From a virus: 53,635 bases of DNA. Below are positions 12,946-25,550 of this stretch, piece after piece; the stretch's first letter is position 1, and the number at the start of each line of letters is the position of its first letter. Position numbers and translations under genes: made by a program. The DNA lies in UHGV virus genome UHGV-1680239; one strand, written 5' to 3'. The notes below the pieces were generated by a model. It had not been told where the DNA came from. It was given only the letters and a program-made list of their open reading frames with translations, and did no database searches.

Positions 12946-13020
12946 GATGGTGTAGCTCAGCGGTAGAGCAGTTGGCTGTTAACCAACTGGTCGGTGGTTC
13001 GAATCCACCCACCATCGCCA
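12946..13020 (+). tRNA. tRNA-Asn (anticodon GTT)
   Basis: Hand-folded cloverleaf: acceptor GATGGTG/CACCATC, D-arm GCTC-AGCGGTA-GAGC, anticodon loop CTGTTAA, T-arm GGTGG-TTCGAAT-CCACC, encoded CCA. Confidence 0.85.
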
Positions 13021-13025
13021 ATTTA

Positions 13026-13112
13026 GGGGAGTTAGTCCGTAGGGGCAGCGGGGTAGACTGTAAATCTACTGTCATTGCGACTCGGGTGGTTCGACTCCAT
13101 CACTCCCCACCA
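13026..13112 (+). tRNA. tRNA-Tyr (anticodon GTA), long variable arm
   Basis: Acceptor GGGGAGT/ACTCCCC, anticodon stem-loop GTAGA-CTGTAAA-TCTAC, T-loop TTCGACT, encoded CCA; D-arm geometry slightly atypical. Confidence 0.75.
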
Positions 13113-13116
13113 AATT

Positions 13117-13192
13117 GCCGGTTTAGCTCAGTTGGTAGAGCGCCTGCCTTGTAAGCAGGATGTCAGCGGTTCGATCCCGTTAACCGGCACCA
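13117..13192 (+). tRNA. tRNA-Thr (anticodon TGT)
   Basis: Acceptor GCCGGTT/AACCGGC, D-arm GCTC...GAGC, anticodon loop CTTGTAA, T-loop TTCGATC, encoded CCA. Confidence 0.85.
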
Positions 13193-13278
13193 ACACAACA
13201 GGTAAGAGCATTGGGCGAATCGGCGATACTGACCCACAAGCCCGTAAATCGATAGAGTCAGACCAGTGCTCTTACCGT
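13193..13278 (+). repeat. long hairpin element B, abutting the 3' end of tRNA-Thr
   Basis: Arms CACAACAGGTAAGAGCA / TGCTCTTACCGTTGTG with one bulge. Confidence 0.5.
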
Positions 13279-13333
13279 TGTGAGGAAGTGCAGCTCTTTG
13301 AAGCAACCAGAAGATAAGCATCTGGCTTCACAA

Positions 13334-13412
13334 CACAACGATAAGATCATTACGGTTAATCGTCGTTCATGTGCACAATGACTGGTCGAAAGGTAGTGAT
13401 CTTACCGTTGTG
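13334..13412 (+). repeat. long hairpin element C
   Basis: Arms CACAACGATAAGATCA / TGATCTTACCGTTGTG with one mismatch. Confidence 0.5.
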
Positions 13413-13512
13413 ATGAATGCACAGGCTGATGTGCCGCAACTACAGTAGTGCGCGCTTTGCGGGGCTTGCTACAACCCTGTGTCGGAGTTCAGCACCGACC
13501 ATCACAATAGCT

Positions 13513-13599
13513 GGAGAGTAGGGAGCATGGTGCTCAAGCGGTCTTGAAAACCGTCCCATTGCGCAAGCGATGATGGTTCGATTCCATTACTCTCCGCCA
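13513..13599 (+). tRNA. tRNA-Ser (anticodon TGA), long variable arm
   Basis: Acceptor GGAGAGT/ACTCTCC, anticodon stem-loop GCGGT-CTTGAAA-ACCGT, T-arm GATGG-TTCGATT-CCATT, encoded CCA. Confidence 0.8.
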
Positions 13600-15710: not shown

Positions 15711-16814
15711 ATGAAAAATAGCTTTGACAGAGCACGCGCAGCGGAGAACACCTCAAAAGAGGCGATTGAGTATCTCGAAAGAGCATCTCAAATGCAGGCA
15801 GTTATGATCTCCCAGGTCAGCAATGACATGAGATTCTCGGACGCATTCATGTTATTCACTCGCTTATCTCTGCTGATAACCAGACGTCGGCCAGAGATCG
15901 CTGTTCATTGTATTTTGATACATGTTTTGCCGCACATTGCCGATGTAAAAGTAAGTGACATTAATAGGTTCATGGTGAACCAACTGGTCAACCCACTAAT
16001 ACTGGATGGCAAAATTGTTATGGGCCGCCGCGTTTTCTCTCTGATGAAGCAGTTCCTTAGCTGGTGTGCCTTCCAGGGGATGATCGACGTATCACCGTTA
16101 AACGATATGTCACTAAACAAAGTTGCCGGTGGCGCAAAGCCCACACCTCGCGAGCGGAAGCTGACCGACGCAGAGGTATGGGTGTTCTGGAATATCTGGG
16201 ACTACTTCAATGTGTGCGCAGGTACAAAATGGGCGGCCAGGCTATGTCTTGTATCCGCAAGACGACCTGATGAAGTACTGCGGGCTAAAAAAAGTGAGTT
16301 CAATCTTAAGCGTGGGGTTTGGAATCAAGGCAAAAGAAACAAGTCAGCACGTGAGCATTCGCTGCCTTTAAGCACATTAATGCGCACATGCATTGAAGAG
16401 TTGTTCGAATACGGTAAAGATAGCCAGTGGCTCGTTCCTTCGAATAAAAAAATCGGGAAAGACCTTCCTATGTCTAAAGTGGCAATAGCCCAGGCATTAC
16501 GTCGTATTCTGGAACGACCAGAACTGATGGAGCTTGAGCCATTTACACCCCGAGATTTGCGCCGTACTGCGCGTAGTTACTTCCCAGCATTAGGCATAAG
16601 CCAGGAGGTATCACGTAAAATCATGAACCACAGTCTTGAGGGGATAGATCGGGTCTACGACCGGCACGATTATATGGACGAGATGCGAGACGCCTTAGAA
16701 AGTTTCTCGACGTACATCGCATCAATCGTAGAGCAACCGGATTTAGACGAAATTGACCACAAATTTAAGGGAGATCGTCTATCAACAGAGCTTATTCGTG
16801 TAAATTTTTCATAG
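15711..16814 (+). CDS. tyrosine site-specific recombinase (integrase or resolvase)
   Basis: C-terminal catalytic signature PRDLRRTARS ... NHSLEG ... VYDRHDY (R..R, H..R, Y). Confidence 0.8.
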   Translation: MKNSFDRARAAENTSKEAIEYLERASQMQAVMISQVSNDMRFSDAFMLFTRLSLLITRRRPEIAVHCILIHVLPHIADVKVSDINRFMVNQLVNPLILDGKIVMGRRVFSLMKQFLSWCAFQGMIDVSPLNDMSLNKVAGGAKPTPRERKLTDAEVWVFWNIWDYFNVCAGTKWAARLCLVSARRPDEVLRAKKSEFNLKRGVWNQGKRNKSAREHSLPLSTLMRTCIEELFEYGKDSQWLVPSNKKIGKDLPMSKVAIAQALRRILERPELMELEPFTPRDLRRTARSYFPALGISQEVSRKIMNHSLEGIDRVYDRHDYMDEMRDALESFSTYIASIVEQPDLDEIDHKFKGDRLSTELIRVNFS

Positions 16815-17195
16815 AGACTTTATGGCCTCAACAACCTTTTGTGATGCGCCTTTCTCTTTACCGAATCGCTCGTTATATGCAGCAAGAACCTGTTTTTCGT
16901 CCTCGTTAAGAGGAGCAGTGCCTTCTTTGTATAAAAATGCTGCGAGTTCGGGTTGGCGTTCTTCCAGCACCATCATCATAAGACGACTTGGCTCAATACC
17001 CAGTGCCAGCGCCAGCGGACGAACCTTATCGATAGGCAAAGGAATTTTGCCGCTTTTAATTAAAGAAAGGTTGTTGGCGTTTTTATACCCAATTGTTTTG
17101 GCTATCTGGGCCTGGCTCATAGGTGAGGATTCAATCAACCCTGCGATAAAAGCAGCGTAGCGACTTTCTATAAATTCAATCTTGTTATCAGACAT
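16809..17195 (-). CDS. XRE-family helix-turn-helix transcriptional regulator (repressor-like)
   Basis: N-terminal HTH SQAQIAKTIGYKNANNLSLIKSGK; convergent with and overlapping the recombinase 3' end; divergent from a small ORF. Confidence 0.75.
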   Translation of the reverse strand: MSDNKIEFIESRYAAFIAGLIESSPMSQAQIAKTIGYKNANNLSLIKSGKIPLPIDKVRPLALALGIEPSRLMMMVLEERQPELAAFLYKEGTAPLNEDEKQVLAAYNERFGKEKGASQKVVEAIKSL

Positions 17196-17757: not shown

Positions 17758-19866
17758 ATGTCTAAAAAACGTTCCATCAAAGAGGTTCAGGACTTCCGTG
17801 ACAGTGTAAAACGAGTAGTCGCTCTCCTTTCAGGTAAAAACATCCCTGTTGCAGAACGAGGGGACGACGCTTATGTACGCTATAACGATGATGGAGAGCC
17901 AATTCTCGTAAACATCCCATCAATCCCGGATAACGCAACACCGGCATTGATGAATGCTGTGCGCGGATTTCTCGATCATGAGGTTGCTCACATTTTGTTT
18001 ACCGATATTCGTGTGTCCAACAAAATGAGAGAAAAAGGACGCGTTCCTTCCTGGTCGCTATGGAATGCCTTAGAAGACGTGTTCATCGAGCGAAAAATGG
18101 GTCAGGTCTTTAACGGAACAAGACGTAATCTGATGGCAACTCAGCGCCTTATAATCGAAAAAGTCTTTAAACCAAAGGCTTCAGAGGCTATTGCTTATTG
18201 TGGCAAAGATCAGCGCGCGCTTTTTCTAAACTTCTTTCTCTGTCCGGTTGTAAGAGCCTGGGATGGCCAAGCACCGTTCGTAGATTTCATGGATGAATAT
18301 TGGCCTGTCATTGAGAAACCAATTTCATTATTAAAAGAACATGGTATCGATGTGGCCGTGCGTAACATGTCTTGCACCGAGGATTGTGTAAAGGTGGCTG
18401 CAACCATAGCTAAGATCCTCAAAGACACTGAAAGTGAAAGCAAAGGTAAGGAGTCAGCTCCGGGAAAAACTTCCGATCCTTCAGACGCTGACCAGACGGA
18501 TGCCTCTGGAGAAAATAATGAAGATAACGAAGATCATGAGACATCCTCAGCGTTAGATAATCACAAATCTATCAAACCAGAATCACACAGTAAGCACAAA
18601 CATGATAATAACGACAGTGATGATTCAGATAATTCTGAATCATCAGAGACAATATTCAATGATACAGAAAATGATAAAGAGGTATCAGATTCTGGTGCTT
18701 CTGATAACGCGGCGTCAGAATCATTTACCACTGACCACGAAAAAAGAAAATCGACAGAAGACGGCTCTTCAGACATACCAACTCCGTCAAAAATGAGTCT
18801 GGAAGAGGCTTTAGAGGAGTTGGATAGCATGGAAGATGAAGTCGGAGGCATGACAGAAGATGCGCTATCCGAAACGATTAAAAGCGAGTTAACAGAAAGC
18901 TCGAAAAGCGAATACAGGCCATACAATCGCTCATACGACTTCATCGGCTCGATTGATCAGGCAGAAGCCCATATCAAACGGCTTATTAAAACATTCTCCG
19001 ATATTGATTTAGGTGGATATCCAATCAGCCGTTATCGCATCGTTCCTGAAGGCAACCAACTCTTCGACAAATATATTGAAAAGCACCTTTCGTCAGGTGT
19101 TTCGTCGACGCTGGCAAAAGACCTGGAACGTGCAATAGCAAGCAGAAACAGAGTTCAGTTTATACCTGGCCAGCGTCGGGGGCGCATTCATGGTTCAAGT
19201 ATCTACAGATTAACAATGAATGATGATCGCGTGTTTCGTAAAAAAGAAGAATCTAAAGCCGTTAACGCCTGTGTTCAACAAGTGATTGATTTATCTGGTT
19301 CAATGAGTGGCGAAACGATAAAACTAGCTCTTGCAAGTGCATATACCATCGCCGATGCACTTGATCGAATAAATGTTCCCAACATTATCACCGGCTTCAC
19401 TACATTTGGCAGTCATATGGCAGCAGGAGAACTTAAGGCTATCAAATATGAGTTCTCTCGCTTTGAATCTTTAATGCTACCTATCATCAAAAATTGGAAT
19501 GAAAAAGCAAATTCTCGCGAAGTTCGCTCACGTATGGGGTGCGTAGGCTACACATTCCCACTTCTTAATAACGTGGATGGTGAAAGCATAGCCAGCCTTG
19601 CATCGTTATTTTCCGGTCGCATGGAGGACAGGAAGATCATGCTTGTTCTGAGCGATGGCGAGCCGTGGGCTGTTGGGAGAGGTTTTGACGCTCATTTGCG
19701 TTCGGTTGCGAAGCAAATTGAAACGCAGACTGACATTGATTTGATGGCAATTGGCATCATGACTGACGCACCGGAGAGATTTTACTCAAATCATGCCCTG
19801 GTAACGAGCGTTGATAGTCTTGGTTCATCTGTAGTTACTGAACTATCTCGTATCATTTTGAAGTAA
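17758..19866 (+). CDS. CobT-like von Willebrand factor A (vWA) domain protein with long acidic Ser/Asp/Glu-rich linker
   Basis: MIDAS motif DLSGSMSG in the C-terminal domain; low-complexity acidic region over about 18420-18900; followed by an AAA+ ATPase gene. Confidence 0.65.
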   Translation: MSKKRSIKEVQDFRDSVKRVVALLSGKNIPVAERGDDAYVRYNDDGEPILVNIPSIPDNATPALMNAVRGFLDHEVAHILFTDIRVSNKMREKGRVPSWSLWNALEDVFIERKMGQVFNGTRRNLMATQRLIIEKVFKPKASEAIAYCGKDQRALFLNFFLCPVVRAWDGQAPFVDFMDEYWPVIEKPISLLKEHGIDVAVRNMSCTEDCVKVAATIAKILKDTESESKGKESAPGKTSDPSDADQTDASGENNEDNEDHETSSALDNHKSIKPESHSKHKHDNNDSDDSDNSESSETIFNDTENDKEVSDSGASDNAASESFTTDHEKRKSTEDGSSDIPTPSKMSLEEALEELDSMEDEVGGMTEDALSETIKSELTESSKSEYRPYNRSYDFIGSIDQAEAHIKRLIKTFSDIDLGGYPISRYRIVPEGNQLFDKYIEKHLSSGVSSTLAKDLERAIASRNRVQFIPGQRRGRIHGSSIYRLTMNDDRVFRKKEESKAVNACVQQVIDLSGSMSGETIKLALASAYTIADALDRINVPNIITGFTTFGSHMAAGELKAIKYEFSRFESLMLPIIKNWNEKANSREVRSRMGCVGYTFPLLNNVDGESIASLASLFSGRMEDRKIMLVLSDGEPWAVGRGFDAHLRSVAKQIETQTDIDLMAIGIMTDAPERFYSNHALVTSVDSLGSSVVTELSRIILK

Positions 19867-19961
19867 TTAAAACAGCCTTAATGATAAGTAACTACTTACC
19901 ATAGTTAATGGTATATTTATATAAGAACTTGAACGCTCATTAGAGAACAAAGGAAAAGCGC

Positions 19962-21197
19962 ATGACTACTACTGCACTGCAAAATGATAAAAATCCTTCT
20001 GATTACCTTGTTTGCAAGTGGTGCGGCAAATCATTTCACTATTTTAAGTCCCATGTAGCCAATGGTAATTGCGAGGGCATTCCTGAGTCAGTAAAAGATG
20101 CCGATCCTGACACCGTACTGAAAATGTACACAACGCAGTTTCCAGATGAGCCAACGCTATCGAAAAAGGCACTTGATGCAATTCAAGCTAAACGTGCCGA
20201 GCAAAAAAGCGAAATGGCCAAATCTTCTGGCTTGACCAGTAACCCTGGCTACACAGGCACAGTTGAGTACAAGACAGATCTGGTCGCAGCTCACGAACTG
20301 CTAAACGTAACGGTGGAAGAACTCGGAACAAAACGTGGGACGCCGCTCATGGTTAGCGTCAACGTCAATACGCCGTATCCAGAGTTCGTTCCCGAAGTGA
20401 AGAAAGGCTACGTATATGGCGACTTCGAACTGATCAAAGATATTTTCATGATGCTTGAACTTGGCATACCTGGCTATTTGTGGGGTCATGCAGGAACAGG
20501 CAAATCGTCATTGCCTACACAGCTATGTGCTTTGCTCAATCGTCCGTTGATCCGTGCCCAACATACAGCATCAATGGAAGAGGCACATGTTACGGGGCAA
20601 ATTCTGGCGCGTGATGGCTCTACGTATTTCGAACCTGGCTTGCTTGCGCTCGCAATGAAGCATGGCTGGGTTTACCTCGCGGATGAATACGACTTTGCGT
20701 TTCCACAAATTCTTGGCGTGTATCAGCCAGTGCTGGAAGGTGAGGCGTTGGTCATCAAAGAGGCAACTCCAGAATGGCGTCGCATTACTCCGCATGAACG
20801 GTTTGCTTTCATTGGCACTGGCAACACAAACGGTTCTGGTGATGAAACCGGCTTGTACCAGGGTACAAACATCCAGAACGCCGCGAACTTTTCGCGTTTT
20901 GGCATCGTTTCAAATGTGAAATACATGAGCAAAGAGGCAGAGATCAACATGTTGATAAATGCCGGCATCGTGGATGAATACGCTGAAAAGATGGTTAAGT
21001 TTGCCGGTATCGTTCGCGATGGTTACGAAGAACACAACATCAGCCAACCGATTGGGCCTCGTGAGCTTTTGTTGTCGGCCAAGATTGGAATGATGCGAGG
21101 CGACTTTGTGACAGGTATTGAGCGTTCTTTCATTAACAAACTCCCTTCAGCTTCTGCACAAGCAGCTCGTGAAGTTGTTCAAAAAATATTTGGTTAA
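19962..21197 (+). CDS. CobS/MoxR-like AAA+ ATPase with N-terminal Cys-rich extension
   Basis: Walker A GHAGTGKSS, Walker B-like WVYLADEYD; partner of the upstream vWA protein. Confidence 0.7.
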   Translation: MTTTALQNDKNPSDYLVCKWCGKSFHYFKSHVANGNCEGIPESVKDADPDTVLKMYTTQFPDEPTLSKKALDAIQAKRAEQKSEMAKSSGLTSNPGYTGTVEYKTDLVAAHELLNVTVEELGTKRGTPLMVSVNVNTPYPEFVPEVKKGYVYGDFELIKDIFMMLELGIPGYLWGHAGTGKSSLPTQLCALLNRPLIRAQHTASMEEAHVTGQILARDGSTYFEPGLLALAMKHGWVYLADEYDFAFPQILGVYQPVLEGEALVIKEATPEWRRITPHERFAFIGTGNTNGSGDETGLYQGTNIQNAANFSRFGIVSNVKYMSKEAEINMLINAGIVDEYAEKMVKFAGIVRDGYEEHNISQPIGPRELLLSAKIGMMRGDFVTGIERSFINKLPSASAQAAREVVQKIFG

Positions 21198-21377
21198 TCG
21201 TGCGTAAAGGATGTTTCGGCTCTCTTATCGCTGCTTCTGAAACTGGTAAGGCTTGTCTGGTGTGTCCAGACAAGCCCGATTGTCACCAATCAGCAAAAGA
21301 AGTTGCGATTTCGATGCATGGGAAGTTTGTAGGCTTCCCCAATGACAAAATCCAAAAAACCAGAAAGGTAAAAACAC

Positions 21378-24300
21378 ATGAAGGCACTGATGGTTCGAAC
21401 TGACTTCTCACTTGGGGAGTCGGCTCTAAAAGCAGAAAACGCGGTGAAGATTGCCAGAGAAGCTGGCTACACCGCTGTAATTTCAGCAGATAGCATGAAT
21501 ATTGCGAGTGTTATTCCACTACAACGTGCCGCTGGTGACGACATGGCGGTTATTTGTGGTGTGAAACTAAACATTGTTGATGATCCCACATACGAGCACC
21601 GGGCTAAACTTGCTAAAGAATCTATGAGATGTATGGAATCATTAGAGCGGGGACGTAACTACTCGTTTACCGCTCTAATTAAAAATGAGCAAGGATATCG
21701 CGACATCTGCGAACTAATGACGGTGGCCAACACACGAGAACAGTTCTACTTTGTACCGCGTCTCTCGCTCGAACAGTTGGTTTCTACATATGCCAAAGGC
21801 AACATCATCCTGCTCACTTCCGACATCGGTAGCGTGTTCCAACGCAACGATTTTGCAAAAATCATAAGCTCACTGATTACAGCGGGCGGGAAAGACAACT
21901 TCTATAGCGTGGTTTATCCGCACCCTACCCCATTCTACGACCAGATTAACGTCCGGGCGATGAAAGTAGCCAGCGCACTGAAAATAGAGCCAGTAGCGTT
22001 TTATCCCGCTTATTACGAATCGATCGACGATGCTGACATTAAAGACATTGCGCACATGGTTACGAACAACATCAAAATCGACCAGCCGCATCGTCTGCGT
22101 ATCCCCCACCAGCGAGATAACGCCATCAATGGTCGTCGCCATCTCCTTGAGGCGCTTAAAGCCTTCTCCGTTCGCATGGATGTGCCGGTAACAGCTGCAA
22201 TGGCCTCAACAACGCAGGACTCCATTATCGATGCCTGCACATGGCGCTGGCATGAATTGCCACCAGCACTGCCCAAGATGGCAGACGACGAACCTGCAAC
22301 GCTGATGAAACTGGCTGTTGAAGGGCTGCGTAAACGTCTTACCACAAAAGAGTTTGGATACACACCACCTGCTTCTGAGAACAGGGTTTATGTTGAGCGG
22401 CTAAAGTACGAAATGGACACGCTGACTCGCCTGGGATTTTGTGGTTACTTCCTGATGGTACGCGATCTGATGAATCACAGCCGTGAAACTGGCATTCCTG
22501 TCGGGCCTGGTCGTGGTTCCTCTGCCGGTTCTCTGGTGGCGTGGTGCATAGGCATAACCAACGTCGACCCAATCCGTCACGGTCTTCTGTTTGAGCGTTT
22601 CATCAACCCTGAGCGTCTCGACTTGCCGGATGCGGACTTGGACTTCAGCCAGGCACGTCGCCATGAGGTGATCGAGTATCTGAATGAACGCTACGGCGAA
22701 GATTACGTTGCAGGCATTCCGAACTTCACCTATCTGGGCGCGGCATCTGCGCTGCGTGACACTGCACGTATTTACGGTGTCGATGCTGCGGATATGGCGG
22801 TATCCAAAGAGTTCAAGAATATGGAGGACGACAGCCTGTCTCTGGAAGAGCTGCGCGAACAACTGGCAAGTCTCGACAAATACGCAACAAAATATCCTGA
22901 TGCATTCAATGCAGCCTGCAAGTTACAAAGCCTTATGCGTGGCTTTGGTAGACATGCGGCAGGGATGATCGTAGCAGGTGTTCCTCTGACAGAACGTACA
23001 CCGGTTGAGCGCCGTGGTGACGCGCGTTGTATCGCATTTGACAAGCGTTACTGCGAGGCTATGGGCCTAATTAAGCTGGACGTGCTTGGCCTGGCAACTC
23101 TCGATTTGCTCGATAGTGCAAAACGCTACATAAAAGAGAACACAGGTGAAGATATCAATCTTGATGCCATTTCTCTTGAAGATCGCAAGGTGCTGGATGG
23201 TTTTGCTGCTGGGTACACTCAAGGTGTTTTCCAGCTTGAATCAGGCCCAATGCGCAAGCTGCTTAAAGATTTAGGTGGTGGAATTGAGCCAATGAGCTTT
23301 AAAACGGTCGTCGCTACAACTGCGCTCTTCCGGCCGGGGCCAATTCAATCAGGCATGTTGGATGACTATGTTTCTGTCGCCAAAGGCTTTATGACGCCGG
23401 AATCATTACACCCCGTTCTTGATGAACTTACCGCGGAAACAAATGGCGTGATTCTCTATCAGGAACAGACGATGAACGCGACTCGATTGCTTGCCGGCTT
23501 CACAATGGCTGAAGCTGACGCTGTGCGTTCCGCAATCGGTAAGAAGAACATGGAAAAAATGAAGAGCATGGGCGAGAAGTTCATCGTTCAGGCTCAAGCT
23601 GGCTGGATAGACGTTGAGCTGGAAGATGGCACTACACAGCGCATTCACCGTGCGGAACATTTTAAATGCGAAGACGGAACTCTGAAAACTGTCGAAGAGG
23701 CGTTGGAGCATGGAGTGAAGCTGCCAATGCCAGTTGTGCGCGTTACAACGTCACATCCAGGTCTGTCTGAGACGAAGGCAAAAGAGATATGGACTGCATT
23801 TGAGAAAAACGGAGCCTATCAGTTCAATAAATCACACTCCGTTGCTTATTCTTTAATCAGTTATCAGTCTATGTGGCTAAAGACGCACTACCCTGCTGAG
23901 TTCTTCGCAGCTGCGCTCACCATTCTGGGCGAGGATAAGCATCAGGGGCTGGTGAAGGATGCGCTGACCTATGGCATTCGCGTATTGCCACCAGACGTTA
24001 ATGTGTCATCTAACCGAATTGAGATCCGCACACTCGAAGACGGCAGTCAGGCACTGTATGCGCCATTCTCTGCTGTGAAAGGCTGTTCTGAAAATGGTTG
24101 TCAGGCAATTATGCGTGCGCGTGAGAAAGTTGGTGGCAAATTCGAGTCAGTGGCACAATTCGATGAAGCGGTCGAGAAGCGTGCATGTAACAGTCGTGTA
24201 CGCGAGTCGCTTCATAAAGTAGGGGCTTTTGCGTCAATTGAGCCAGGCAGTCTGCCAGCAACTGATCCTGAACGACTGCGCGACCAGGCTGAGCTGATGG

Positions 24301-24896
24301 GCAATCTCATCATTGACGCTGTTAAAGCATCACGTCCGTTCGAAATGAATCCTAAGCGTTCTGCCGAAATCAACGTACTCATGACACGTATGGCGGCTGA
24401 AATGGGCTTGGGTGAGGAGTTGATACGCCCGACTATTGGTATTAAACCCAAAATCATGATCATTCTGGACAATGCGAACGGCAATGACGCTCGTACCGGC
24501 TACTTCATGGAGAACGGATACGACGACTTTAAGGCAAAACTACTGACAGTTGGAGATCTGCGCATGGGCGATCTTTATGTCACGGGTGTTTGTAAGAAGG
24601 TTAAGGACAAAGAAAAAGACTACACCAAAGACGAGATCGGCCAGTTCACCGACTTTATGCGTGAAGAGATCAATCTGGTGCGTCCAACCTACATTTTGAC
24701 GTGTGGTAGTCGTTCAACCGCACTATTTAACAATAAGAGTAAACCATCAGATCTGATTGGTCGTAAGGAGTACTTCCCGGAGCTTGATGCAACCGTCTTC
24801 TACGGATTTAACCCGAATATCCTGTACTTCCGACCGGAAGAAGGAGAGCGACTGGAGGCCATTCTGGCTGATATCGCGGAGACGATAAATAAGTAA
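21378..24896 (+). CDS. dnaE: DNA polymerase III alpha-subunit-like replicative polymerase (DnaE-type, N-terminal PHP domain)
   Basis: 1172 aa; GPGRGSSAGSLVAWCIGIT and FNKSHSVAYSLISYQSMWLKTHYPAEF are hallmark DnaE segments; ATG in the conserved AAAAACACATG context. Confidence 0.9.
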   Translation: MKALMVRTDFSLGESALKAENAVKIAREAGYTAVISADSMNIASVIPLQRAAGDDMAVICGVKLNIVDDPTYEHRAKLAKESMRCMESLERGRNYSFTALIKNEQGYRDICELMTVANTREQFYFVPRLSLEQLVSTYAKGNIILLTSDIGSVFQRNDFAKIISSLITAGGKDNFYSVVYPHPTPFYDQINVRAMKVASALKIEPVAFYPAYYESIDDADIKDIAHMVTNNIKIDQPHRLRIPHQRDNAINGRRHLLEALKAFSVRMDVPVTAAMASTTQDSIIDACTWRWHELPPALPKMADDEPATLMKLAVEGLRKRLTTKEFGYTPPASENRVYVERLKYEMDTLTRLGFCGYFLMVRDLMNHSRETGIPVGPGRGSSAGSLVAWCIGITNVDPIRHGLLFERFINPERLDLPDADLDFSQARRHEVIEYLNERYGEDYVAGIPNFTYLGAASALRDTARIYGVDAADMAVSKEFKNMEDDSLSLEELREQLASLDKYATKYPDAFNAACKLQSLMRGFGRHAAGMIVAGVPLTERTPVERRGDARCIAFDKRYCEAMGLIKLDVLGLATLDLLDSAKRYIKENTGEDINLDAISLEDRKVLDGFAAGYTQGVFQLESGPMRKLLKDLGGGIEPMSFKTVVATTALFRPGPIQSGMLDDYVSVAKGFMTPESLHPVLDELTAETNGVILYQEQTMNATRLLAGFTMAEADAVRSAIGKKNMEKMKSMGEKFIVQAQAGWIDVELEDGTTQRIHRAEHFKCEDGTLKTVEEALEHGVKLPMPVVRVTTSHPGLSETKAKEIWTAFEKNGAYQFNKSHSVAYSLISYQSMWLKTHYPAEFFAAALTILGEDKHQGLVKDALTYGIRVLPPDVNVSSNRIEIRTLEDGSQALYAPFSAVKGCSENGCQAIMRAREKVGGKFESVAQFDEAVEKRACNSRVRESLHKVGAFASIEPGSLPATDPERLRDQAELMGNLIIDAVKASRPFEMNPKRSAEINVLMTRMAAEMGLGEELIRPTIGIKPKIMIILDNANGNDARTGYFMENGYDDFKAKLLTVGDLRMGDLYVTGVCKKVKDKEKDYTKDEIGQFTDFMREEINLVRPTYILTCGSRSTALFNNKSKPSDLIGRKEYFPELDATVFYGFNPNILYFRPEEGERLEAILADIAETINK

Positions 24897-24902
24897 TAAA
24901 GA

Positions 24903-24924
24903 AAACCCGCCAACTGGCGGGTTT
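24903..24924. terminator. bidirectional hairpin terminator
   Basis: AAACCCGCC-AACT-GGCGGGTTT between the dnaE stop and the minus-strand gene stop at 24927; T-run on the minus-strand side. Confidence 0.5.
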
Positions 24925-24926
24925 CA

Positions 24927-25490
24927 TTATGCGCATTTCGCAATATCCTTGCGGCGTTTAATCAGTTTCTCAGCAATTTGCTCTATTTCGTTGAAATCTT
25001 TCGAGACGCTGTTTCGAAGCGCCAGATTCCATTTACTCAAAGTTCGGGCATTTTGGACAATCTGATCGCCCTCTTTAAGTCGTCCGTTATCCATGAGCCA
25101 TTCAGCCACATCAGCCCAATCCCACAGAGGCGACTGGCCTTTTATGCGTTGTACAGGGCAAGGGAAGTCGCCGCTTCCGCGCTTACCGTCTTTGAGCAAC
25201 GCCACAGCCTGGCGAGACAGGTCTGTCAGTTCCGCGATATCGCTTAAGCCCACAAGAGCCGAGTCGACGGATTCAACAATTGCACCGATACCGGCTGATT
25301 CAATATTGTCGACCGCAGATGCGATAGCTGCATCAAGTGATTGTGCTTCGCGGTCAAATTCTACATAGACGGAGTTTCCATATGCGCAAATTAGCGCATC
25401 GTCACAGCCGTTTTGGTACAGCGCGTCTTCCAGTCCTTCCGTCTCATACGATACGCCTGAGAGCGTCAGAGTGAAGTTATAAAGCGCCAT
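24927..25490 (-). CDS. two-domain protein with C-terminal HTH-like region (candidate antitoxin/regulator; HicB-like is only a hypothesis)
   Basis: Internal ATG (MALYNF...) preferred over the track's TTG at 25526; lies 25-60 nt downstream of a 74-aa gene on the same strand. Confidence 0.4.
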   Translation of the reverse strand: MALYNFTLTLSGVSYETEGLEDALYQNGCDDALICAYGNSVYVEFDREAQSLDAAIASAVDNIESAGIGAIVESVDSALVGLSDIAELTDLSRQAVALLKDGKRGSGDFPCPVQRIKGQSPLWDWADVAEWLMDNGRLKEGDQIVQNARTLSKWNLALRNSVSKDFNEIEQIAEKLIKRRKDIAKCA

Positions 25491-25550
25491 AGTATTCCTT
25501 TGAAGATAGTTGGACAGTTTCTGCAAAAGGCGGCAATAGCCGCCTTGAAA

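What the first reader, a model, noticed from the sequence alone, without database searches (positions are those of the whole stretch)
17758..21197. CobT-like vWA protein with a long acidic Ser/Asp/Glu-rich linker, paired with a CobS/MoxR-like AAA+ ATPase
The vWA protein has a MIDAS motif and about 120 residues of acidic low-complexity sequence (about 18420-18900). Its AAA+ partner has an added Cys-rich N-terminal domain. Such pairs recur in phages without a defined function, and the acidic linker and extra domain are atypical.
Basis: partly seen in the sequence, partly recalled or inferred. Interest (0 to 1): 0.5.

Follow-up and report, generated by a model that had tools for sequence, protein, structure and literature searches.

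The report
Phage CobT/CobS-like motor–adaptor pair
Two adjacent genes of an SSU5-like E. coli phage-plasmid encode relatives of the CobS motor and CobT adaptor of the vitamin-B12 cobalt chelatase, but their extra features and their position next to the phage DNA polymerase suggest a DNA-linked protein-remodelling machine, not a B12 enzyme.

Summary
ORF 17758-19866 is a CobT-like protein with an N-domain, a 123-residue acidic Ser/Asp/Glu linker and a vWA domain with a MIDAS motif. ORF 19962-21197 is a CobS/MoxR-class AAA+ ATPase with a Cys/His-rich N-terminal extension.

The window is 97-98% identical to known SSU5-like phage-plasmids (Cyrano, CMS-2020a), so the genes are long catalogued.

True cellular CobT has the same disordered acidic linker. 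The extra ATPase domain is standard for this viral lineage, in 103 of 113 homologues.

Three findings go further:
- The extra domain is a Ros/MucR-type zinc finger, a DNA-binding module.
- The CobT-like N-domain keeps an HExxH motif in 127 of 135 viral orthologues and in 0 of 76 cellular CobT. That domain has an M48-peptidase-like fold in Brucella CobT.
- The order repressor | cobT-cobS ... dnaE is conserved in about 160 loci.

No CobN or B12-dependent gene is present in the element. The pair is best read as a CobST-type motor and adaptor working on an unknown, probably DNA- or replication-linked client. The client and the function remain unproven.

The parts
16809..17195 (-). HTH (XRE/cI-like) repressor, transcribed divergently from the cobT-cobS-dnaE unit (context)
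   Evidence: HTH_19 E 7.8e-4 and phrog_8 transcriptional regulator E 1.3e-11. A homologue lies upstream of CobT in 133 of 161 loci. The Cyrano orthologue CYRAN_45 is expressed in the lysogen (PMC9928086).
17447..17659 (+). 70-aa ORF of unknown function, first gene of the + strand unit
   Evidence: phrog_2627 E 5.8e-41. Found in the close SSU5-like loci only (76 of 161).
17758..19866 (+). CobT-like adaptor protein (702 aa)
   Evidence: Pfam CobT and CobT_C; phrog_1576 E 2.2e-300; PDB Brucella CobT 9uka_G E 1.1e-16. TIGR01651 scores 71.5 bits against a cut-off of 759.
17758..18417 (+). CobT N-domain (aa 1-220): helix, three short strands, then nine helices. This is the same order of elements as the M48C-peptidase-like CobT_N of Brucella.
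   Evidence: Pfam CobT E 1.1e-21. AF2 model pLDDT 89.9. The topology and the M48C resemblance of true CobT_N are described in bioRxiv 10.64898/2026.07.21.739949.
17977..17991 (+). HExxH motif (HEVAH, aa 74-78). It is followed by the conserved N103..E106-D107..E111 on the next long helix.
   Evidence: Present in 127 of 135 viral orthologues. Absent from 76 of 76 cellular CobT, which have RGxxDSMALRK at this position.
18418..18786 (+). Acidic Ser/Asp/Glu low-complexity linker (aa 221-343, net charge -23). An acidic helical continuation runs to nt 18912.
   Evidence: It varies in length and sequence among relatives while the flanks are conserved. The equivalent linker in Brucella CobT is disordered.
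19141..19254 (+). Segment aligned with the 'shaft' of Brucella CobT (Q373-R413), which inserts into the CobS ring pore
   Evidence: Alignments. The role of the shaft is described in bioRxiv 10.64898/2026.07.21.739949. Function here is inferred by homology.
19231..19863 (+). vWA domain with MIDAS (DLSGS at nt 19288-19302; N605, D633)
   Evidence: CobT_C E 2.9e-82. DxSxS present in 135 of 135 orthologues. Aligned to Brucella MIDAS residues.
19962..21197 (+). CobS-like MoxR-class AAA+ ATPase (411 aa)
   Evidence: AAA_5; phrog_249 E 1.3e-106; PDB CobS 9ujv E 3.9e-26. Foldseek top hits are NorQ and CbbQ, E about 1e-15. TIGR01650 scores 87 bits against a cut-off of 558.
19998..20207 (+). Ros/MucR-type zinc-finger domain (aa 13-82). 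Likely ligands are C18, C21, H31 and C37, a C2HC variant of the family's CX2CX9HX3-5H motif.
   Evidence: C18, C21 and H31 are conserved in 60 homologues. CX2CX9H in 103 of 113. Pfam ROS_MUCR hits 32 of 60 homologues, best E 1.4e-6. The domain profile hits Ros87 (2jsp) first, E 0.0014. Relatives elsewhere score 65-82 bits on ROS_MUCR. AF2 pLDDT is 73-88.
20385..21194 (+). AAA+ module (aa 142-411). Walker A GHAGTGKS is at nt 20484-20507 and Walker B (D241-E242) within nt 20670-20687. N288, R312 and R367 correspond to sensor-1, the Arg finger and sensor-2 of Brucella CobS.
   Evidence: These residues are invariant in 60 homologues.
21200..21403 (+). 67-aa Cys-rich ORF. It starts 2 nt after cobS ends and overlaps the dnaE start.
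   Evidence: phrog_6337 E 1.3e-44, plus a weak phrog_3616 hit. A full-length phrog_3616 gene of about 220 aa occupies this position in 70 diverse loci.
21378..24896 (+). Phage DnaE (Pol III alpha), last gene of the unit
   Evidence: Pfam PHP, DNA_pol3_alpha, finger and HHH_6. Lies downstream of CobS in 156 of 161 loci. No + strand terminator-like site between 17051 and 24209.

Best explanation
The two genes encode a CobS/CobT-type motor and adaptor that belongs to the repressor-controlled early (replication) operon of an SSU5-like phage-plasmid. In this element it does not work as a cobalt chelatase.

By homology with the solved Brucella CobST complex:
- The CobS-like protein forms an ATP-driven hexameric ring.
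- The CobT-like protein docks its N-domain on the small AAA+ subdomain.
- It inserts the 'shaft' that precedes its vWA domain into the ring pore.
- It holds a client protein between its N-domain and its MIDAS-bearing vWA domain, where CobN sits in the chelatase.
- The acidic linker is a flexible tether.

Two features are specific to the viral lineage. A Ros/MucR-type zinc finger on each motor subunit probably tethers the ring to DNA. An intact HExxH in the M48-like N-domain may bind zinc and possibly cleave the client.

The client is unknown. I infer that it is a DNA-bound or replisome-associated protein of phage or host, and that its remodelling helps phage DnaE-driven replication after derepression.

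Shown here: homology, motifs, domain identities and synteny. Taken from a published lysogen transcriptome (PMC9928086): the lack of strong expression of the pair in the plasmid state. Inferred: complex geometry, DNA tethering, a replication-linked client and any peptidase activity.
For: 1. Homology to CobS and CobT, with all ATPase and MIDAS motifs and the shaft segment conserved. The architecture of CobST and CobSTN is described in bioRxiv 10.64898/2026.07.21.739949.

2. It is not a chelatase equivalog.
- TIGR01650 scores 87 against a cut-off of 558. TIGR01651 scores 71 against 759.
- There is no CobN-sized ORF in the window.
- No cobN or B12-dependent enzyme is annotated across positions 1-100,000 of the 108-kb genome of the 97.5%-identical phage Cyrano. 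Its ribonucleotide reductase is class I NrdAB.

3. The N-terminal domain of the motor is a Ros/MucR zinc finger. The same module occurs elsewhere in tandem arrays and fused to GIY-YIG, REase, Mom and NUMOD3 domains, which are DNA-targeting contexts.

4. HExxH is present in 127 of 135 viral CobT-like proteins, including T4-like cyanophage P-SSM2, and in 0 of 76 cellular CobT. True CobT_N resembles an M48C peptidase.

5. The order repressor | cobT cobS ... dnaE is conserved.
- It holds in about 160 loci whose CobS is as little as about 45% identical to the window protein.
- It also holds in Rhizobium phage RHph_X66.
- In P-SSM2 the pair lies between gp46 and gp45/gp44.

6. In the window, cobS, orf67 and dnaE abut or overlap, and there is no + strand terminator-like site inside the unit.

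7. In the Cyrano lysogen the repressor is expressed. CYRAN_47-49 are not among the genes at least 5-fold above background (PMC9928086).
Against: - No experiment bears on the function. The client is not identified.
- Linkage to replication genes is only guilt by association.
- The window's own zinc finger does not reach Pfam ROS_MUCR at E <= 1. One sub-clade has lost a Cys and a His.
- The HExxH has been lost in the Acinetobacter clade (QEVAK), so it is not indispensable.
- T4-like cyanophage CobS lacks the zinc finger.
- The phage CobS-like protein ends where Brucella CobS still has helix alpha10, part of the CobT_N interface. Docking may therefore differ.
Confidence: 0.55

Rival explanations
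1. Auxiliary metabolic genes. Viral CobS and CobT replace or supplement the host subunits and hijack host CobN, raising cobalamin synthesis during infection. This hypothesis is proposed in PMC8651126.
For: Clear homology to CobS and CobT. The proposal is published for tailed viruses in general. MIDAS and the shaft are conserved.
Against: - Scores are far below the equivalog cut-offs.
- There is no cobN in the window or in positions 1-100,000 of the Cyrano annotation.
- The hosts of these plasmids are Escherichia, Klebsiella, Salmonella, Yersinia and Acinetobacter. By established knowledge they lack the aerobic CobN pathway, and E. coli makes no corrin ring de novo. This was not tested here.
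- The element's ribonucleotide reductase is B12-independent class I.
- The lineage-specific zinc finger and HExxH, and the conserved dnaE linkage, are unexplained by chelation.
Confidence: 0.06
2. A metal-cofactor insertion chaperone for a phage metalloenzyme, working like NorQD, CoxDE or CobST but with a protein client instead of a tetrapyrrole. Candidate clients are the PHP domain of the adjacent DnaE or the NrdB di-iron site.
For: - The closest structural neighbours of the motor are NorQ and CbbQ.
- MoxR/vWA pairs often mature metal sites.
- DnaE with a PHP domain is the conserved downstream neighbour.
- HExxH and MIDAS are metal-binding motifs.
Against: - T4-like cyanophages have the pair but use a gp43-type replisome, with no DnaE nearby.
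- A DNA-binding zinc finger on the motor is not needed for metal insertion.
- There is no direct evidence for any metal client.
Confidence: 0.2
3. A host-takeover or anti-defence device unrelated to replication. The motor-adaptor-peptidase would extract or cleave a host defence or regulatory protein.
For: - MoxR/vWA modules are common in conflict systems (PMC7159879).
- HExxH is conserved specifically in viral versions.
- The pair sits early in the operon.
Against: - There is no meaningful PADLOC match.
- The gene pair is strongly conserved and syntenic across very diverse hosts. That is unusual for fast-evolving anti-defence genes.
- The linkage to replication genes holds in unrelated phage groups.
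Confidence: 0.12
4. A virion or tail assembly chaperone, as proposed for the MoxR/vWA pair of an archaeal virus.
For: A precedent is cited in PMC7159879.
Against: The pair lies in the replication and recombination module, far from the structural genes, which sit at positions 135-26536 of Cyrano. It is co-transcribed with dnaE.
Confidence: 0.03

Closest known systems
Aerobic cobaltochelatase motor and adaptor CobS/CobT (Brucella melitensis CobSTN; PDB 9uj*/9uk*; bioRxiv 10.64898/2026.07.21.739949)
   Same: - The AAA+ module is 29% identical, with all nucleotide-site residues conserved.
- CobT has the same three-part build: N-domain, disordered acidic linker, and a vWA domain with MIDAS preceded by a shaft segment (27% identical over aa 439-700).
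- The R69/D73 pair corresponds to R76/D80 at the CobS interface.
   Different: - There is no CobN partner in the element.
- Gene order is reversed: cobT then cobS, against cobS then cobT in cells.
- The motor has an added Ros/MucR zinc finger and lacks the C-terminal helix alpha10.
- The adaptor N-domain keeps HExxH where cellular CobT has SMALR.
- The linker is longer (123-165 aa against about 90).
- Scores are far below the TIGR equivalog cut-offs.
CobS-like and CobT-like ('porphyrin biosynthesis protein') genes of SSU5, pHCM2 and pMT1-type phage-plasmids, and of phages Cyrano and CMS-2020a
   Same: This is the same gene pair. It is 97-98% identical at the DNA level to Cyrano and CMS-2020a and 75% identical to SSU5, in the same operon position. 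1016 PLSDB plasmids carry it.
   Different: Nothing substantive. The public annotations are inconsistent, and in Cyrano they are wrong ('dimethylbenzimidazole phosphoribosyltransferase', 'cobalamin synthetase').
T4-like cyanophage cobS plus 'peptidase' (for example P-SSM2 PSSM2_154 and PSSM2_150)
   Same: The CobT-like protein has HExxH (HEVGH), an acidic linker and a MIDAS motif (DWSGS). The CobS-like AAA+ is about 30% identical. The pair is embedded among replication genes (gp46, gp45, gp44).
   Different: The cyanophage CobS has a different N-terminus with no Ros/MucR finger. The two genes are separated by three small genes. There is no DnaE, and the replisome is of a different type.
MoxR-class AAA+/vWA pairs NorQ-NorD and CbbQ-CbbO
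   Same: They follow the same motor-adaptor logic. The AAA+ fold is the best structural match (Foldseek E about 1e-15, TM 0.84 on the target).
   Different: They have different adaptors and different clients (NorB and Rubisco). They lack the M48-like N-domain, the acidic linker of this type and the zinc finger.
Ros/MucR prokaryotic C2H2 zinc-finger proteins (Ros87, PDB 2jsp)
   Same: The CX2CX9HX4H spacing and the following '..eeY' helix align with the CobS N-domain profile. Pfam ROS_MUCR hits 32 of 60 homologues.
   Different: Here the finger is fused to an AAA+ motor and is not a free-standing transcriptional silencer. In the window the last ligand is Cys37 instead of His.

Membership tests
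Cobaltochelatase subunit CobS (TIGR01650 equivalog) | Score at or above the curated equivalog cut-off (558.55 bits) | tested here: not met
   87.2 bits, E 1.1e-24.
Cobaltochelatase subunit CobS (TIGR01650 equivalog) | Functional AAA+ site (Walker A and B, sensor-1, Arg finger, sensor-2) | tested here: met
   GHAGTGKS, D241-E242, N288, R312 and R367 align with Brucella G71-S78, D141-E142, N186, R210 and R271.
Cobaltochelatase CobNST | A CobN substrate-binding subunit available in the same genome or pathway | tested here: not met
   No ORF of 450 aa or more other than CobT-like, DnaE, RecA-like, SbcC and NrdA in the window. No cobN in positions 1-100,000 of the Cyrano annotation. Absence from the host chromosome rests on established knowledge of E. 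coli and was not tested here.
Cobaltochelatase subunit CobT (TIGR01651 equivalog) | Score at or above the curated equivalog cut-off (759.05 bits) | tested here: not met
   71.5 bits, covering the C-terminal part only.
CobT family in the broad sense (Pfam PF06213 + PF11775) | N-domain, acidic disordered linker, then a vWA domain with MIDAS | tested here: met
   97.2 bits (cut-off 26.1) and 276 bits (cut-off 21). Linker and MIDAS.
MoxR-class AAA+ / vWA motor-adaptor pairs | A MoxR-clade AAA+ (AAA_5/CbbQ_C type) encoded next to a vWA-MIDAS protein | tested here: met
   AAA_5 hit. CbbQ_C hit in 50 of 60 homologues. Foldseek finds NorQ and CbbQ. The two genes are 95 nt apart.
Ros/MucR zinc-finger domain (Pfam PF05443) | CX2CX9HX3-5H zinc site and a profile match | tested here: inconclusive
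   - The window protein has CX2CX9HX5C and no PF05443 hit at E <= 1.
- 32 of 60 homologues aligned with it do hit, best E 1.4e-6.
- The domain profile finds Ros87 first, E 0.0014.
- 72 of 113 homologues have the full C2H2 spacing.
Zincin metallopeptidase (M48-like) | HExxH on a helix plus a downstream Glu ligand | tested here: inconclusive
   HEVAH 74-78 is present. E106 and E111 are at least 90% conserved in both N-domain alignments, on a helix 28-33 residues downstream. Which one, if either, ligates metal cannot be read from the tools.
Zincin metallopeptidase (M48-like) | Significant fold match to a zincin | tested here: not met
Zincin metallopeptidase (M48-like) | Zinc binding and peptidase activity | not testable with these tools
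   Needs biochemistry.
SSU5-like phage-plasmids | Nucleotide identity and gene order shared with known members | tested here: met
   97.8% identity to CMS-2020a and 97.5% to Cyrano over 4.1 kb, 75% to SSU5. Gene order is the same.
Known anti-phage defence systems (PADLOC) | A profile match to a defence protein | tested here: not met
   Only a 16-bit DrmE match.

The most novel reading that the evidence does not exclude
Viral CobST is a DNA-tethered, ATP-driven extraction and cleavage machine. Six Ros/MucR fingers would park the CobS ring on phage or host DNA. The CobT adaptor would capture a DNA-bound protein through its MIDAS site. Candidate targets are a nucleoid silencer, the phage repressor or a host replisome subunit. 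The retained HExxH zincin domain would then cut or hold the target while the motor pulls, clearing the template for the phage's own DnaE. If so, the 'cobS/cobT' genes counted as cobalamin auxiliary metabolic genes in viromes would be replication-licensing factors. Cellular CobT would be a peptidase-dead descendant or sister of this machine.
Probability: 0.15. Interest if true: 0.8.

Novelty: new variant of a known kind. Interest (0 to 1): 0.45.

Why it matters
Viral cobS and cobT are routinely scored as cobalamin 'auxiliary metabolic genes' in marine, gut and wastewater viromes. They are also core genes of T4-like cyanophages and of a very common family of enterobacterial phage-plasmids, found in more than 1000 PLSDB plasmids here.

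If the viral lineage is instead a DNA- or replication-linked remodeller, those ecological inferences need revision. The supporting features are a zinc finger on the motor, an intact HExxH on the adaptor, no CobN and constant linkage to the replisome genes. A widespread and experimentally tractable phage function would then become testable in E. coli, for example in Cyrano/pLF82.

The result also bears on how the chelatase adaptor evolved from a peptidase-like ancestor. The genes themselves are not new. What may be new is the reading of their domains and context. I found no paper in the searchable library that describes it.

Tried and rejected
I rebuilt it from database hits (A4).
- The third homologue search, with the N-domain profile, returned only 42 proteins, mostly fragments. 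They were useful for the alignment but not for reaching other zincin families.
- The N-domain profile hit anti-CRISPR AcrIIA26 (9zq6_B) at E 0.004 over 47 residues around the N..ED..IE motif. I treated this as a probable chance match or a shared short motif and did not pursue it.
- Single-sequence PDB search of the N-domain gave only spurious MHC and SOD hits.
- The promoter and terminator scan found no more sites than in shuffled sequence. The inverted repeats in the repressor-cobT intergenic region are short and unconvincing. No operator is claimed.
- The sequencing-artefact or tandem-repeat explanation of the linker is rejected.
- Membership in a defence system is rejected.
- The cobalt chelatase reading is rejected as the main explanation.


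Full report
**What is there.** The stated coordinates hold two same-strand ORFs, 17758-19866 (702 aa) and 19962-21197 (411 aa).
- The first ORF matches Pfam CobT (aa 9-294, E 1.6e-27) and CobT_C/vWA (aa 492-701, E 2.9e-82).
- The second matches AAA_5 (E 2.1e-15).
- PHROGs places them in phrog_1576 (E 2.2e-300) and phrog_249 ('porphyrin biosynthesis', E 1.3e-106).
- Both match the recently solved Brucella CobT (9uka_G, E 1.1e-16) and CobS (9ujv_A, E 3.9e-26).
- The motifs are intact: MIDAS DLSGS 511-515, Walker A GHAGTGKS 175-182 and Walker B D241-E242. N288, R312 and R367 align with sensor-1, the Arg finger and sensor-2.
- The low-complexity stretch is aa 221-343: 123 residues, S/D/E 48%, net charge -23, nt 18418-18786.

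**Where it comes from.** The 4.1-kb region is 97.8% identical to Escherichia phage CMS-2020a, 97.5% to phage Cyrano (pLF82 of E. coli LF82) and 75% to Salmonella phage SSU5. The window is therefore an SSU5-like phage-plasmid.
- The CobT-like protein's 90% cluster has 3307 members.
- 1016 PLSDB plasmids encode it: Klebsiella 347, Escherichia 229, Acinetobacter 147, Enterobacter 92, Yersinia 63, Salmonella 49.
- The genes are thus long catalogued, under inconsistent names.
- Cyrano's record calls them 'dimethylbenzimidazole phosphoribosyltransferase' and 'cobalamin synthetase'. This confuses them with the unrelated Salmonella CobT and CobS.

**Is the acidic linker atypical or an artefact? Neither.**
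- Cellular CobT from 76 alphaproteobacterial genomes carries an equivalent acidic stretch.
- The Brucella structural study describes 'a linker of ~90 residues' that is disordered in all maps (bioRxiv 10.64898/2026.07.21.739949).
- All 135 unique viral orthologues have an acidic linker of 92-275 aa, median 165.
- Among close relatives the linker varies in length and sequence while the flanks stay conserved.
- There is no significant DNA tandem repeat.

**What the 'Cys-rich' domain is.** Across 60 homologues down to 44% identity, C18 is invariant and C21, H26 and H31 are at least 90% conserved.
- 103 of 113 homologues have CX2CX9H, and 72 of 113 have the full CX2CX9HX3-5H. This is the Ros/MucR spacing.
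- Pfam ROS_MUCR is hit by 32 of 60 members, best E 1.4e-6. The window protein itself does not hit at E <= 1.
- A profile of the domain finds Ros87 (2jsp) as its best PDB match (E 0.0014), aligning both Cys, both His and the following helix.
- An exhaustive profile search found 828 representatives. Many carry 2-5 tandem copies, score 65-82 bits on ROS_MUCR, and are fused to GIY-YIG, REase_MTES_1575, Mom or NUMOD3. These are DNA-targeting contexts.
- In the SSU5 clade the last His is replaced by Cys37.
- AF2 models aa 13-82 with block-mean pLDDT of 73-88 over aa 11-80.
- Cellular CobS (327-347 aa) and T4-like cyanophage CobS lack this domain.

The N-domain carries HEVAH (aa 74-78). It is followed by conserved N103, E106-D107 and E111.
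- The motif QGFLDHEV[AG]H...N..ED..[IV]E is present in 127 of 135 viral orthologues, in Rhizobium phage RHph_X66 and in the 'peptidase' of cyanophage P-SSM2.
- It is absent from 76 of 76 cellular CobT, which have RGxxDSMALRK at the aligned position.
- One clade (Acinetobacter plasmids) has lost it, reading QEVAK.
- The Brucella paper reports that CobT_N is a helix, a three-stranded sheet and eight helices, 'resembling the peptidase M48 subfamily C domain'.
- My AF2 model (pLDDT 89.9) has the same order of elements. It found no significant PDB neighbour, so a zincin fold for the viral domain rests on homology to CobT_N.
- The viral lineage thus keeps a metalloprotease signature that the chelatase adaptor has lost. 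Whether it binds zinc or cuts anything is untested.

**Context.** I collected 161 viral loci. Eighty are close SSU5-like elements. Eighty are diverse environmental elements, many of them on contigs of about 100-118 kb, whose CobS is about 45% identical to the window protein.
- CobT-like lies directly upstream of CobS-like in 159 loci.
- A DnaE lies 0.2-2.3 kb downstream in 156 loci.
- An HTH repressor lies upstream in 133 loci, mostly divergent.
- The gap usually holds a sigma-70-like gene and a Cys-rich gene of about 220 aa (phrog_3616). The window's 67-aa ORF is a short version of the latter.
- The same module occurs in Rhizobium phage RHph_X66.
- In T4-like P-SSM2 the pair sits between gp46 and gp45/gp44.
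- In the window, cobS, orf67 and dnaE abut or overlap, and no + strand terminator-like site interrupts the unit.
- In the Cyrano lysogen the repressor is transcribed. CYRAN_47-49 are not among the genes at least 5-fold above background (PMC9928086). This fits a repressed early or replication operon.

**Why not a cobalt chelatase.**
- Scores are far below the equivalog cut-offs: 87 against 558 and 71 against 759.
- There is no CobN-sized ORF in the window.
- No cobN or B12-dependent enzyme is annotated across positions 1-100,000 of Cyrano's 108-kb record. Its ribonucleotide reductase is class I.
- The hosts of these plasmids are, by established knowledge, without the aerobic CobN pathway. This was not tested here.
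- The published idea that viral CobST hijacks host CobN (PMC8651126) therefore cannot apply to this element.

**Most likely mechanism.** By homology with CobSTN:
- A CobS-like hexameric ring grips the shaft segment (aa 462-498 here).
- The CobT-like N-domain docks on the small AAA+ subdomain. R69 and D73 correspond to R76 and D80.
- A client sits between the N-domain and the MIDAS face of the vWA domain, where CobN sits in the chelatase.
- ATP-driven motion remodels the client. This is the common logic of MoxR/vWA pairs (PMC7159879). The motor's best structural neighbours are NorQ and CbbQ.
- The zinc fingers would tether the ring to DNA. The HExxH domain may hold or cleave the client.
- The client is unknown. 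The conserved linkage points to a DNA- or replisome-associated protein.

This last step is inference. Rival readings are a metal-insertion chaperone for DnaE or NrdB, host takeover, the chelatase function and virion assembly. They are weighed in the rivals section. There is no match to known defence systems.

**Verdict.** The finding is real and correctly identified as a CobT-like/CobS-like pair. It is a well-catalogued feature of a common phage-plasmid family, and the 'atypical' features are typical of that family. The added value is the domain reading (a Ros/MucR finger and a retained HExxH in an M48-like domain) and the invariant operon with dnaE. Together these argue for a non-chelatase, DNA-linked function that is testable in E. 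coli.

Noticed in passing
window 21200-21403 (+): The 67-aa Cys-rich ORF between cobS and dnaE (phrog_6337) is a short version of a protein of about 220 aa (phrog_3616, motif GCFGS..C..C..C). The longer protein lies directly upstream of dnaE in 70 diverse SSU5-supergroup loci and in Rhizobium phage RHph_X66. Its function is unknown.
   Followed up: partly
L082-L161 and L244 9257-9901 (no counterpart in the window): Many distant relatives carry a sigma-70-like gene (phrog_3741; Sigma70_r2 E 0.0026) between cobS and the phrog_3616 gene. The window and its close SSU5-like relatives lack it.
   Followed up: partly
window 24135-24893 (DnaE aa 920-1172): The C-terminal 250 aa or so of the phage DnaE match only PHROGs of unknown function (phrog_4335, phrog_13175). 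They give a weak, sub-threshold hit to the UDG superfamily (E 0.025), in place of the usual OB and tau-binding region.
   Followed up: partly
P0288; L146 10707-12170: Inteins occur in this module in some relatives. One zinc-finger CobS homologue (731 aa) carries a Hint plus LAGLIDADG insertion. Acinetobacter-plasmid DnaE appears to be split by an intein-like insert.
   Followed up: no
L001 9359-12798 (Cyrano CYRAN_47 and CYRAN_48): The public annotation of the near-identical phage Cyrano names the pair 'dimethylbenzimidazole phosphoribosyltransferase' and 'cobalamin synthetase'. This confuses them with the unrelated Salmonella-nomenclature CobT and CobS.
   Followed up: yes
window 17758-18402 (profile A3) against PDB 9zq6_B: The CobT N-domain profile gives a borderline hit (E 0.004, 47 residues) to anti-CRISPR AcrIIA26, over the N..ED..IE..m...F.G motif. 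It is probably chance, but it is an odd shared motif.
   Followed up: no
window 12946-13599 (+): There is a cluster of four tRNA genes (Asn-GTT, Tyr-GTA, Thr-TGT, Ser-TGA) upstream of the glutaredoxin, integrase and repressor region. Cyrano's record annotates only three of them, with no Tyr.
   Followed up: partly
window 24927-25526 (-) and downstream: A HicB-like antitoxin ORF lies immediately after dnaE, on the opposite strand. It corresponds to the HicAB pair annotated in Cyrano, and a strong hairpin at 24902-24925 lies between the two convergent units.
   Followed up: no
P0283, P0284, P0294, P0407, P0426: The Ros/MucR-type finger of the CobS N-terminus also occurs as tandem arrays of 2-5 copies and fused to GIY-YIG, REase_MTES_1575, Mom and NUMOD3 domains. 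This amounts to a prokaryotic or phage multi-zinc-finger family, with 828 representatives at E <= 1e-3.
   Followed up: partly
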